Positions 14,945 through 16,320 of a stretch of 64,000 nt of DNA are shown piece after piece (position 1 is the first letter of the stretch; every line of letters starts with the position of its first letter). Position numbers and translations under genes: made by a program. The notes beneath the pieces were generated by a model, which saw only the letters and a list, made by a program, of their open reading frames with translations, ran no database searches and had not been told where the DNA came from. The stretch is from the human T2T-CHM13v2.0 reference genome, Homo sapiens: the NCBI GenBank assembly GCA_009914755.4, contig CP086569.2:1280001-1344000 (forward strand), given 5' to 3'.

Positions 14945-16320
14945 AGAAAGGGGCCGGGCGCGGTGGCTCACGCCTGTCATCCCAGCACCTTGGGAGGCCG
15001 AGGCGGGTGGATCACGAGGTCAGGAGTTCGAGACCATCCTGGCTAACACGGTGAAACCCTGTCTCTACTAAAAATACAAAAAATTAGCCAGGCCTGGTAG
15101 TAGGTGCCTGTAGTCCCAGCTACTCGGGAGGCTGAGGCAGGAGAATCGCTTCAACCCGGGAGGCGGAGGTTGCAGTGAGCCGAGATCGCACCACTGCATT
15201 CCAGCCTGGGCCACAGAGCGAGACTCCGTCTCTAAAAAAAACAAAAGAAACAGCAGTTTGGGCGGCCGAGGCGGATGGATCACCAGAGGCCAGGGGTTCG
15301 AGACCAGCCTGGCCAACATGGCGAAACCCCGTCTCTACTAAAAATACAAAAATTAGCCAGGCGTGGTGGCGGGCACCTGTCATCCCAGCTACTCGGGAGG
15401 CTGAGGCAGGAGAATCGCTTGAACCCGGGAGGTGCAGGTTGCAGTGAGCCGAGATCGCGCCCCTGCATTCCAGCCTGGGCCACAGAGCGAGACTCCGTCT
15501 CTAAAAAAAACAAAAGAAACAGCAGTTTGGGCGGCCGAGGCGGATGGATCACCAGAGGCCAGGGGTTCGAGACCAGCCTGGCCAACATGGCGAAACCCCG
15601 TCTCTACTAAAAATACAAAAATTAGCCGGGCGTGGTGGCGGGTGCCTGTAATCCCAGATACTTGGGAGGCTGAGGCAGGAGAATCGCTTCAACCCGGGAG
15701 GCGGAGGTTGCAGTGAGCCAAGATCGCACCACTGCACTCCAGCCTGGGCCACAGAGCGAGACTCCATCTCTAAAAAAAACAAAAGAAACAGCAGTTTGGG
15801 AGGCCGAGGCGGATGGATCACCAGAGGCCAGGGGTTCGAGACCAGCCTGGCCAACATGGCGAAACCCCGTCTCTACTAAAAATACAAAAATTAGCCGGGC
15901 GTGGTGGCGGGTGCCTGTAATCCCAGATACTTGGGAGGCTGAGGCAGGAGAATCGCTTCAACCCGGGAGGCGGAGGTTGCAGTGAGCCAAGATCGCACCA
16001 CTGCACTCCAGCCTGGGCCACAGAGCGAGACTCCATCTCTAAAAAAAACAAAAGAAACAGCAGTTTGGGAGGCCGAGGCGGATGGATCACCAGAGGCCAG
16101 GGGTTCGAGACCAGCCTGGCCAACATGGCGAAACCCCGTCTCTACTAAAAATACAAAAATTAGCCGGGCGTGGTGGCATGCACCTGTCATCCCAGCTACT
16201 CGGGAGGCTGAGGCAGGAGAATCGCTTGAACCCGGGAGGCGGAGGTTGCAGTGAGCCAAGATCACGCCACTGTACTGCAGCCTGGGCGACAGAGCGAGAC
16301 TCTGTCTCAAATAAATAAAT
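14945..16320 (+). repeat. Alu-derived tandem array. One full Alu (14945-15243) is followed by four 5'-truncated Alu units with a ~269-bp period (starts at about 15244, 15511, 15782, 16051)
   Basis: Each unit begins aaagaaacagcagtttgggcggccgaggcggatggatcac and ends ctctaaaaaaaac. The pairwise spacings are 267, 271 and 269 bp. Confidence 0.8.

What the first reader, a model, noticed from the sequence alone, without database searches (positions are those of the whole stretch)
14945..16320. Alu-derived tandem array (269-bp period, five units) in an ASMTL intron
After one complete Alu, four further units recur at spacings of 267, 271 and 269 bp. Each is the same 5'-truncated Alu beginning aaagaaacagcagtttgggcggccgaggcggatggatcac and ending ...gagactccgtctctaaaaaaaac. 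This is not independent retrotransposition (identical truncation points, no TSDs between units). It is amplification of an Alu-containing unit by unequal crossing over or replication slippage, in effect a young Alu-based minisatellite. Arrays like this are uncommon and are candidates for copy-number polymorphism.
Basis: seen in the sequence. Interest (0 to 1): 0.5.

Follow-up and report, generated by a model that had tools for sequence, protein, structure and literature searches.

The report
Alu tandem array from unequal crossover
Two neighbouring Alu repeats in an intron of the human ASMTL gene recombined out of register several times, producing a five-copy head-to-tail Alu array; this is a clear example of a known process, not a new kind of element.

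Summary
Window 14952-16334 holds five direct, head-to-tail Alu copies with an exact 269-bp period (TRF: 5.0 copies, 94% matches). About 37 other Alus in the window are at most 89.4% identical to a unit.

The array lies in ASMTL intron 5, antisense to the gene, 170 nt upstream of exon 6.

The details need correcting:
- The array had two independent founders. A (unit 0) is a full-length Alu of one subfamily class. B (unit 4) is a 5'-truncated Alu of another class.
- B has its own tail and a perfect 11-bp target-site duplication, AAAAGAAACAG. This motif sits at every junction and again after the last unit, and occurs nowhere else in 64 kb.
- Units 1-3 are chimeras with B's left arm and A's 3' end and tail. 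Breakpoints differ (permutation p = 0.0006 for U1, 0.0001 for U2 and for U3).
- This is the signature of repeated homology-driven unequal exchange between A and B.
- Units 2 and 3 differ at one base, so the last step is recent.

This is a new member of a known kind (Alu-derived tandem repeats, Alu/Alu-mediated multi-copy amplification). No function is indicated. Copy-number polymorphism is plausible but could not be tested here. Interest is low to moderate.

The parts
14952..15242 (+). Unit 0 = founder Alu A. Full-length dimeric Alu of class I (Sc/Y-like left arm), with the short tail TAAAAAAAAC.
   Evidence: Alignment. Both monomers hit Rfam Metazoa_SRP, at 14953-15067 (E 9e-13) and 15087-15234. 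Its class I haplotype is shared with 10 independent window Alus. Its left arm is 93% identical to the unrelated Alu at 16591-16700 but only about 86% to units 1-4.
15243..15511 (+). Unit 1. An 11-bp TSD copy followed by a chimera: B's left arm to about unit position 179-217, then A's 3' end and A's tail.
   Evidence: Variant table. Maximum chi-square breakpoint after site 23, between unit positions 179 and 209, permutation p = 0.0006.
15512..15780 (+). Unit 2. A TSD copy followed by a chimera with an earlier breakpoint: B's left arm to about position 128-140, then mostly A-type with A's tail.
   Evidence: breakpoint after site 17, p = 0.0001. It carries three private substitutions shared only with unit 3.
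15781..16049 (+). Unit 3. A near-identical copy of unit 2 (268/269). The single difference, at unit position 21, matches unit 4.
   Evidence: 99.6% identity. This fits a last unequal exchange between B's left arm and unit 2's right part.
16050..16323 (+). Unit 4 = founder Alu B. A 5' TSD copy followed by a 5'-truncated class II (Sx-like) Alu starting at about consensus position 31, with its own right arm and its own tail AAATAAATAAATAAT.
   Evidence: Unit 4 is 274 bp long, against 269 bp for the internal units.
16324..16334 (+). 3' copy of B's target-site duplication, AAAAGAAACAG, followed by unique intron sequence.
   Evidence: The 11-mer occurs 5 times in the window, all at this array; 0.00 are expected from shuffles.
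14673..14781 (-). ASMTL exon 6 (109 nt), flanked by ...ccttgcag| and |gtgagt. Its acceptor is 170 nt from the array's left edge.
   Evidence: 36/36 identity to PDB 2P5X residues 126-161; boundaries.
18235..18296 (-). ASMTL exon 5. Intron 5 is 14782-18234 (3,453 nt), and the array fills about 40% of it, antisense to the gene.
   Evidence: tblastn and splice-site reading.

Best explanation
**Step 1, two independent insertions.** Two Alus inserted next to each other in direct orientation in ASMTL intron 5. A is full length, of the Sc/Y-like class, with a short A-tail. B is a 5'-truncated Sx-like Alu that inserted at AAAAGAAACAG, immediately 3' of A's tail, duplicating that 11-mer. Homologous positions in A and B lie 269 bp apart.

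**Step 2, unequal exchange.** Out-of-register pairing of B with A, followed by homology-driven exchange, added units. The most likely route is meiotic unequal crossing-over between sister chromatids or homologues. Each added unit starts with the TSD and B's truncated left arm and ends with A's right end and A's tail.

**How many events.** At least three are needed:
- An older hybrid, the ancestor of U2/U3, with exchange at about unit position 128-179.
- A second hybrid (U1), with exchange at about position 179-226.
- A recent B-by-U2 exchange that produced U3.

**What the array does.** Nothing indicates a function; it behaves as a neutral intronic structural feature. The truncated units lack the 5' 30 nt of the Alu. 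From general knowledge, that stretch carries the Pol III A box, so these units should not be retrotransposition sources.

**Shown versus inferred.**
- Shown: the array, the TSD, the two subfamily classes, and the chimeric structure with distinct breakpoints.
- Inferred: meiotic crossover rather than replication template switching; a role for PAR1's very high male recombination rate; the order and dating of events.
For: 1. **Array and register.**
2. **Two founders.**
   - U0 differs from U1-U4 at 17 left-half sites. U0 versus U1-4 is 86-87% identical, against 99-100% among U1-4.
   - Six of these sites (U0 positions 64-65 indel, 86, 93, 98, 127, 162) covary as two classes across 31 independent Alus in the same window. 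U0 falls in one class and U1-4 in the other. This does not depend on consensus sequences recalled from memory.
   - U1-4 also share states that are rare or absent among the other Alus: 65A in 0/31 and 74G in 0/31.
3. **TSD.** AAAAGAAACAG flanks B exactly and is found nowhere else in 64 kb.
4. **Chimeras.**
   - U0-U3 share the derived states GGGCCACAG and TCTCTAAAAAAAAC. U4 keeps GGGCGACAG and its own tail.
   - Maximum chi-square permutation tests give p = 0.0006 for U1 and p = 0.0001 for U2 and for U3, with different breakpoints for U1 versus U2/U3.
5. **Period.** The 269-bp period equals the A-to-B offset. B plus its TSD is 274 bp.
6. **Exchange intervals.** They coincide with the longest perfectly identical A/B tracts, 38 and 29 bp at unit positions 141-208.
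7. **Last step.** The only U2/U3 difference matches U4, as a B-left/U2-right exchange predicts.
8. **Regional context.**
   - The window is dense with tandem arrays.
   - PAR1 male recombination is about 17-fold the genome average (PMC9575207).
9. **Precedent.** Alu-flanked duplications and multi-copy amplifications with chimeric Alus are documented (Balachandran et al.).
Against: - No second haplotype or ape orthologue could be obtained, so the two-unit ancestral state is inferred, not observed.
- Tamarin has no Alu at the left junction, but its far flank does not align with the human one, so it is not a clean empty site.
- The unit order is awkward for the model. U1 is more B-like than U2/U3 yet lies next to A. 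Single-offset crossovers on one array type predict A-H-U1-H-B, where H is the U2/U3-type hybrid unit. The observed order requires an exchange with a shorter allele, a gene-conversion patch, or CpG homoplasy.
- Several informative sites are CpG transitions and may be parallel changes.
- A's own TSD is only weakly recognisable (9/14).
- Sequence alone cannot separate meiotic NAHR (non-allelic homologous recombination) from homology-guided replication template switching.
- No PRDM9-type 13-mer lies inside the array.
Confidence: 0.82

Rival explanations
1. Single-Alu origin. One full-length Alu underwent a non-homologous, microhomology-mediated tandem duplication. The breakpoints lay at Alu position about 31 and 11 bp into the 3' flank, with a shared CAG. 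The unit was then amplified, and the differences between units arose later by mutation or ectopic gene conversion.
For: The junction shows 3 bp of microhomology (flank ...AAACAG, Alu CCCAGCAC). From my own knowledge, the Alu-side breakpoint falls in the 26-bp 'core' region reported as recombination-prone. The flank after the array (AAAAGAAACAGATGTTTGG) loosely resembles the junction (AAAAGAAACAGCAGTTTGG).
Against: This model predicts that U0's left arm and the U1-4 left arms share one origin. Instead they differ at 17 sites, including six covarying subfamily-class sites. U0's left arm is closer to an unrelated Alu 1.6 kb away (93%) than to its own array. The model also predicts the same tail on all units, yet U4's tail differs from the four others. 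Rescuing it would need an extra ectopic conversion of exactly U0's left arm.
Confidence: 0.06
2. Slippage or unequal exchange between the two 11-bp TSD copies flanking B (the Haber-Louis model of minisatellite initiation), duplicating B plus one TSD.
For: B is flanked by perfect 11-bp direct repeats. Ahmed & Liang attribute 300 TE-derived tandem repeats to such 5-20 bp flanking repeats.
Against: This predicts a 274-bp period and B's tail and right arm in every internal unit. The observed period is 269 bp, and the internal units carry A's tail and A-derived right-end states.
Confidence: 0.03
3. Five independent Alu insertions that happen to be adjacent.
For: Alus do cluster, and A-rich tails are favoured L1-endonuclease targets. 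The window has another adjacent direct pair at 17439-18041.
Against: U1-U4 have an identical truncation point and an identical 11-mer at each junction. They share private substitutions that are absent or rare in 31 other Alus. The spacing is exactly 269 bp, and U2/U3 are 99.6% identical, against at most 89.4% for independent Alus.
Confidence: 0.01
4. Part of the array is an assembly artefact: the U2/U3 pair is a spurious duplication, or a collapse, in the reference sequence.
For: U2 and U3 differ at a single base, the situation in which clone-based or read-based assembly can miscount copies.
Against: The other units carry distinguishing variants. The single U2/U3 difference is itself phylogenetically sensible, since it matches U4. 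Nothing in the sequence, such as Ns or abrupt junctions, suggests misassembly. This would change the copy number by one, not the nature of the feature.
Confidence: 0.05

Closest known systems
Alu/Alu-mediated rearrangements: duplications and multi-copy CNVs flanked by homologous direct Alus (TEMR-HR; Balachandran et al. 2022, bioRxiv 10.1101/2022.06.16.496479; Song et al. 2018, PMC6071635)
   Same: Two direct-orientation Alus serve as substrates, with exchange at homologous positions and a chimeric Alu at each new junction. Further copy gains follow the first rearrangement; four such 'mCNV' cases are reported there.
   Different: In the published cases the Alus flank hundreds to thousands of bp of other DNA (median about 1.1 kb). 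Here the two Alus abut, separated only by a 10-nt tail and an 11-bp TSD, so the amplified unit is itself essentially one Alu. The published events are polymorphic variants in sequenced individuals. Polymorphism here is untested.
TE-derived minisatellites/satellites (Ahmed & Liang 2012, PMC3389668)
   Same: It is a tandem repeat whose unit derives from an Alu. That study lists 7,276 TE-derived tandem repeats in hg19 and describes slow expansion by local duplication after initiation.
   Different: Most Alu-derived tandem repeats have 2-3 units (mean about 2.3; about 8% of those from the older AluS subfamilies (Sx/Sg/Sp/Sq) have more than 3), and many repeat only part of an Alu. This one has five near-full-length copies. 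Most cases in that study had no identified initiation mechanism; here the two-founder chimera signature identifies it. At 94% matches, this array falls just under that study's 95% identity filter.
Alu recombination-mediated deletion (ARMD; Sen et al. 2006; Han et al. 2007, PMC2041999)
   Same: This is the same Alu-Alu unequal homologous exchange, and a chimeric Alu is the diagnostic footprint.
   Different: ARMD is the reciprocal (loss) product. This locus retains the gain products, and several times over.
Classical PAR1 hypervariable minisatellites and VNTRs (for example DXYS14-type loci; from my own knowledge)
   Same: It is a tandem array in a region of extreme male recombination, and many other arrays are present in the same 64 kb.
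   Different: Those have short G/C-rich units (tens of bp) and tens to hundreds of copies. This array has a 269-bp SINE-derived unit and five copies. Hypervariability is not shown.

Membership tests
Alu SINE (7SL-derived dimeric element) | Monomers derived from 7SL/SRP RNA | tested here: met
   Rfam Metazoa_SRP hits the right monomer of every unit (E 1e-15 to 1e-10) and U0's left monomer (E 9e-13). All hits are below the gathering score, as expected for Alu.
Alu SINE (7SL-derived dimeric element) | Left and right monomers joined by an A-rich linker, with a 3' A-rich tail | tested here: met
   The alignment shows the linker TACTAAAAATACAAAAA in all units. Tails are TAAAAAAAAC (U0-U3) and AAATAAATAAATAAT (U4).
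Alu SINE (7SL-derived dimeric element) | Flanking target-site duplication from L1-mediated insertion | tested here: met
   For B, there is a perfect 11/11 AAAAGAAACAG beginning with AAAA, with 0.00 expected by chance. For A, the result is inconclusive: AAAAGGGAGAAAGG against AAAAGAAACAGATG matches 9/14 (read).
Alu SINE (7SL-derived dimeric element) | Intact 5' end carrying the Pol III A box (needed to be a source element) | tested here: not met
   U1-U4 start at about consensus position 31, so they are dead copies. U0 has the full 5' end. The A-box location is from general knowledge.
Alu/Alu-mediated duplication or mCNV (TEMR by homologous repair) | Breakpoints in two distinct same-class TEs in direct orientation | tested here: met
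   A and B belong to different subfamily classes and are both on the + strand.
Alu/Alu-mediated duplication or mCNV (TEMR by homologous repair) | A chimeric TE at each new junction, with exchange at homologous positions | tested here: met
   U1-U3 have a B-type left and an A-type right, with p = 0.0006 for U1 and p = 0.0001 for U2 and for U3. The copies are in register and the period equals the A-to-B offset.
Alu/Alu-mediated duplication or mCNV (TEMR by homologous repair) | The ancestral (unduplicated) allele is observable in another haplotype or species | not testable with these tools
   No human or ape sequence of the locus was found: metagenome and genome scans gave 0 hits, ORF look-ups gave none, and the protein search gave none. 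Tamarin was uninformative for the far flank.
TE-derived minisatellite/satellite (Ahmed & Liang criteria) | Head-to-tail array, unit longer than 20 bp, at least 2 copies, GC at least 40%, unit matching a TE | tested here: met
   Period 269 with 5.0 copies, GC 0.54-0.58, and an Alu-derived unit.
TE-derived minisatellite/satellite (Ahmed & Liang criteria) | At least 95% identity among units (the filter used in that catalogue) | tested here: not met
   TRF reports 94% matches, and pairwise identity among units is 87-99.6%. This is a near miss of a catalogue filter, not of the concept.
VNTR / hypervariable minisatellite | Copy number varies among individuals | not testable with these tools
   No population or long-read data are available here.
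Direct-repeat slippage-initiated tandem repeat (Haber-Louis) | The repeated unit equals the segment between two short direct repeats plus one repeat copy | tested here: not met
   That segment (B plus its TSD) is 274 bp and has B's tail. The internal units are 269 bp and have A's tail.

The most novel reading that the evidence does not exclude
The array may be a copy-number-polymorphic VNTR whose internally marked units (A-type and B-type sites, distinct breakpoints) record serial inter-allelic unequal exchanges in PAR1. Its copy number or unit composition might also affect ASMTL splicing. Five antisense Alus lie 170-1,550 nt upstream of exon 6. On the gene strand, U4 carries both a polypyrimidine+AG site and a CAG|GTGCAT donor-like site, so it could in principle be exonised.
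Probability: 0.1. Interest if true: 0.45.

Novelty: new member of a known kind. Interest (0 to 1): 0.22.

Why it matters
The locus has modest value as a teaching and marker locus.
- It shows one concrete way a TE-derived tandem repeat can start. Two abutting Alus recombine out of register, and the product then feeds further gains. Ahmed & Liang left most TE-derived tandem repeats without an identified initiation mechanism.
- The founders differ at about 30 sites, so each unit's parentage and exchange interval can be read directly. With long-read haplotypes, the locus could serve as a small natural reporter of unequal exchange and gene conversion in PAR1.
- It may also confound short-read mapping and variant calling in ASMTL intron 5.
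- It does not reveal a new type of element or function.

Tried and rejected
**Attempts to obtain other alleles or orthologues**
- Exact-pattern scans of metagenome contigs (junction 25-mer; right-flank 26-mer) and of genome contigs (both patterns) all gave 0 hits.
- Exact-ORF look-ups of a flank-spanning 181-aa ORF and a junction-spanning 102-aa ORF found nothing on record.
- A protein search with the locus-specific 46-aa ORF piece found no candidates.
- A first protein search failed because the query was under 40 aa.
- A search with the exon 7 peptide returned mostly single-exon fragments, but it did yield a tamarin chromosome-scale locus.

**Tamarin comparison**
- The left flank aligns up to the array edge, and tamarin has no Alu there.
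- The human right flank (16335-16596) has no tamarin counterpart.
- I therefore do not call it an empty site.

**Other checks**
- No PRDM9 13-mer lies inside the array, so a motif-driven hotspot in the array itself is not supported.
- I considered and rejected a single-Alu microhomology duplication, slippage between the TSDs, and independent insertions (see the rival explanations).
- I tried to derive a unique event order from single-offset crossovers. It fails for the position of U1, so I left this as unexplained.
- Literature searches for ASMTL with tandem repeat, Alu or VNTR found nothing on this array.
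Full report
**1. Observation**

Reading 14400-16900 shows a full-length Alu starting at 14952, followed by four 5'-truncated Alu copies.
- Tandem Repeats Finder reports one array at 14983-16342 with period 269, 5.0 copies, 94% matches, no indels and score 2288.
- The repeat finder gives five direct copies in register at spacings of 269, 269, 269 and 269, and no inverted repeats.
- As a control for ordinary Alu-to-Alu similarity, I blasted unit 3 against the window. About 37 other Alus are 68-89.4% identical. 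The array units are 90.8% (U0), 94.4% (U1), 99.6% (U2) and 93.6% (U4) identical. Only the array units align from query base 1, which includes the junction.

The true bounds are 14952-16334.

**2. Gene context**

- The minus-strand exon at 14673-14781 (…ccttgcag|…|gtgagt) encodes HQLDTRVSEFYEETKVKFSELSEELLWEYVHSGEPM. This is 36/36 identical to human ASMTL, PDB 2P5X residues 126-161.
- I ran tblastn with the ASMTL sequence as I remember it, used only as a probe. It found eleven collinear minus-strand exon matches, most of them exact or near-exact.
- The array lies between exon 5 (18235-18296) and exon 6. It fills about 40% of the 3,453-nt intron 5, is antisense to the gene, and has its left edge 170 nt upstream of the exon 6 acceptor.
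- That ASMTL lies in PAR1 is established knowledge.

**3. Anatomy**

I define U0 as 14952-15242, U1 as 15243-15511, U2 as 15512-15780, U3 as 15781-16049 and U4 as 16050-16323.

*(a) A target-site duplication is present.* The 11-mer AAAAGAAACAG sits at the start of U1, U2, U3 and U4. It occurs once more at 16324-16334, directly after U4's A-rich tail and directly before unique intron DNA. These five are its only occurrences on either strand of the 64-kb window, and shuffles expect 0.00. It begins with AAAA, which from general knowledge is typical of L1-endonuclease target sites.

*(b) There were two founders.*
- In the left half, U1-U4 are 99-100% identical to each other but only 86-87% identical to U0.
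The sites at U0 positions 64-65 (2-bp indel), 86, 93, 98, 127 and 162 covary in two classes. U0 carries one class (shared with, for example, the Alus at 5368, 16597, 23307, 52969 and 60114). U1-U4 carry the other.
- With the remembered consensuses, these classes correspond to Sc/Y-like and Sx-like left arms.
- U1-U4 also share substitutions that are rare or absent in the 31 controls: 65A in 0/31, 74G in 0/31, and 37G and 56A in 2/31 each. They therefore descend from a single insertion.
- U0's left arm is 93% identical to the unrelated Alu at 16591-16700 but only 61% (ungapped) to the in-array position.

*(c) The internal units are chimeras.*
- At the 3' end, U0-U3 share the derived states GGGCCACAG (consensus GGGCGACAG), TCTCT before the tail, and the tail AAAAAAAAC.
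- U4 keeps the consensus states and has a different tail, AAATAAATAAATAAT.
- U0 and U4 differ at 31 sites within the shared Alu body. U1 reads as 21 of 23 B-type followed by 7 of 8 A-type, with the breakpoint between unit positions 179 and 209 (maximum chi-square 17.9, permutation p = 0.0006).
- U2 and U3 read as 17 of 17 B-type followed by 11 of 14 A-type, with the breakpoint between positions 128 and 130 (maximum chi-square 20.7, p = 0.0001).
- The inferred exchange intervals coincide with the longest perfectly identical A/B tracts: 38 bp at unit positions 141-178 and 29 bp at 180-208.

*(d) The last step is recent.* U2 and U3 differ at one base in 269 (unit position 21). There U2 matches U1 and U3 matches U4.

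**4. Mechanism**

Three explicit models make different predictions.
- **M1.** Out-of-register homologous exchange between two independent adjacent Alus, A (U0) and B (U4). It predicts a period equal to the A-to-B offset, internal units with B's 5' junction and left arm and A's right end and tail, and end units that remain pure A and pure B.
- **M2.** A single Alu duplicated by a microhomology junction (CAG) between Alu position about 31 and the 3' flank. It predicts left arms of one origin and one tail type.
- **M3.** Slippage between B's two TSD copies. It predicts a 274-bp period and B's tail in every unit.

The data fit M1 on every count (period 269, A's tail in U1-U3, different subfamily classes) and contradict M2 and M3.

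At least three exchanges are required:
- An older hybrid, H, the ancestor of U2/U3. It retains ancestral states at unit positions 139 and 226, where U1+U4 and U0+U1 respectively share derived states.
- The U1 hybrid.
- A recent B-by-U2 exchange. This yields U3 and explains the single U2/U3 difference.

One difference in 269 bp implies roughly 1-4 Myr for that last step, but the Poisson interval is very wide, 0.02-21 Myr across plausible mutation rates. Gene conversion could also make it look younger.

What is shown and what is inferred:
- Shown: the structure and the chimerism.
- Inferred: that the exchanges were meiotic unequal crossovers rather than homology-guided replication template switches.
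- Inferred: that PAR1's roughly 17-fold elevated male recombination (PMC9575207; Hinch et al. 2014, PMC4102438, abstract) favoured them.
- Consistent with this, the window is crowded with other tandem arrays.
- No PRDM9-type 13-mer lies within the array.

**5. Unresolved point**

U1 is more B-like than U2/U3 in positions 132-217, yet it lies next to A. A B-left/A-right exchange on an A-H-B array predicts A-H-U1-H-B, which has the right composition but the wrong order. The observed A-U1-H-H-B needs an exchange involving a shorter (A-B-like) allele, a conversion patch, or parallel CpG changes; several of the sites are CpG transitions. This cannot be settled from one haplotype.

**6. Outgroup attempt**

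- A protein search with the exon 7 peptide gave a Saguinus oedipus chromosome-scale locus, L001. Its exons 5, 6 and 7 map at 6007-6078, about 10720-10830 and 12119-12502.
- The human left flank aligns (79%) up to GACAAGAAAAG, within about 10 nt of Alu A's 5' end.
- Tamarin continues with non-Alu sequence, and its nearest Alu is 1.2 kb away.
- The human right flank (16335-16596) has no tamarin counterpart.
- This is compatible with A and B being catarrhine-specific insertions, but it is not a clean empty site.
- All other attempts to find human or ape copies failed.

**7. Function**

Nothing indicates a function.
- The truncated units lack the first 30 nt of the Alu. From general knowledge this stretch holds the Pol III A box, so they are not source elements.
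- Rfam hits in the units are sub-threshold Metazoa_SRP plus the Alu-derived families mir-1268 and mir-3135. All are below their gathering scores, reflecting Alu ancestry rather than genes.
- On the ASMTL strand, U4 has a polypyrimidine+AG site (TTTATTTGAGACAG|AG) and a donor-like ACAG|GTGCAT. U1 has ACAG|GTGCCC. The tail mutation shared by U0-U3 creates TTTTTTTTAG|AG.
- These resemble the sites used in Alu exonisation (general knowledge), but no expression evidence was available. This is a lead only.

**8. Comparison with what is known**

- Ahmed & Liang (PMC3389668) catalogued 7,276 TE-derived minisatellites/satellites in hg19. Alu-derived ones average about 2.3 units, about 8% of those from the older AluS subfamilies exceed 3 units, and most lacked an identified initiation mechanism.
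- Balachandran et al. (10.1101/2022.06.16.496479) documented Alu-mediated duplications (33 of 493 TEMRs) and four multi-copy amplifications flanked by homologous TEs. They concluded that TEMRs can facilitate further copy gains after the initial rearrangement.
- Hoyt et al. describe larger composite arrays attributed to unequal crossing-over.
- The present array is the limiting case of the same process, in which the two substrate Alus abut, so the amplified unit is itself one chimeric Alu.
- No paper on this specific array was found.

**9. Verdict**

The feature is real, and its origin can be read from the sequence with good confidence. It is a tidy new member of a known class rather than a new kind of thing. 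Interest is 0.22. Copy-number polymorphism is plausible but untested.

Noticed in passing
window 36658-37351: A 38-bp x 18.2 minisatellite (92% matches). Thirteen consecutive units each contain CCCCCATCTCCAC on the minus strand, a match to the hotspot-type 13-mer CCNCCNTNNCCNC. The window has 24 matches in total against 5.95 expected. The array lies 0.85-1.5 kb upstream of ASMTL exon 1 (35726-35818, minus strand).
   Followed up: partly
window 33399-35647; 26202-26982; 30278-31905; 32594-33213: ASMTL intron 1 is largely made of G/C-rich VNTRs. There is a 35-bp x 64 array directly downstream of exon 1 in the gene's direction, two separate arrays of the same 19-bp motif GCCATCTTGGACACACAC (x42 and x89), and a 20-bp x 30 array.
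   Followed up: no
window 51127-51564: A second Alu-derived tandem repeat in the same window: a 137-bp x 3.3 array (81% matches) of a partial antisense Alu. Alu-derived arrays are therefore not unique to the flagged site in this region.
   Followed up: no
window 20107-20826: A 233-bp x 3.1 tandem array (87% matches) whose unit (GGTGGCTTATAAACAACAGACATTGATTCTCCCACAGTCCTGGAGACTGGAAGTC...) looks like an interspersed-repeat fragment. The family was not identified.
   Followed up: no
window 13184-14151: A block of about 1 kb of almost pure A/T (GC 7.6% at 13500-13999), made of degenerate TA-rich micro- and minisatellites. It lies in intron 6, about 520 nt from exon 6 on the side opposite the Alu array.
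   Followed up: no
window 5938-7480; 40840-43923; 45076-45749; 55698-59155: Kilobase-scale degenerate tetranucleotide arrays, (CATC)n, (TCTA)n and (TGGA)n, of up to about 3.4 kb.
   Followed up: no
window 16186, 15379, ~16309 (minus strand) and the U0-U3 tails: On the ASMTL strand, U4 carries both a polypyrimidine+AG site (TTTATTTGAGACAG|AG) and a donor-like ACAG|GTGCAT. U1 has ACAG|GTGCCC. The tail mutation shared by U0-U3 creates TTTTTTTTAG|AG. These are possible Alu-exonisation sites 170-1,550 nt upstream of exon 6, but no expression data were available.
   Followed up: partly
window 17439-18041: Two adjacent direct Alus (TRF period 316, 1.9 copies, 76% matches) in the same intron that have not expanded. 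They form a natural contrast to the A/B pair: lower mutual identity and a longer spacer.
   Followed up: no
window 15085-16212, several sites: Every unit gives sub-gathering Rfam hits to mir-1268 (50-60 bits against a gathering score of 83). The four units U0-U3 also give hits to mir-3135 (34-46 bits against 80); U4 does not. These are Alu-derived miRNA families, so the hits reflect Alu ancestry, not miRNA genes.
   Followed up: yes
L001 (Saguinus oedipus CM063191.1:265207-288432) 6079-10720: Tamarin ASMTL intron 5 is longer (about 4.6 kb against 3.45 kb) and carries at least seven Alus of its own in both orientations. None is at the position of the human array. About 1.2 kb next to exon 6 has no counterpart in the human intron, which points to rapid turnover of this intron between platyrrhines and catarrhines.
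   Followed up: partly
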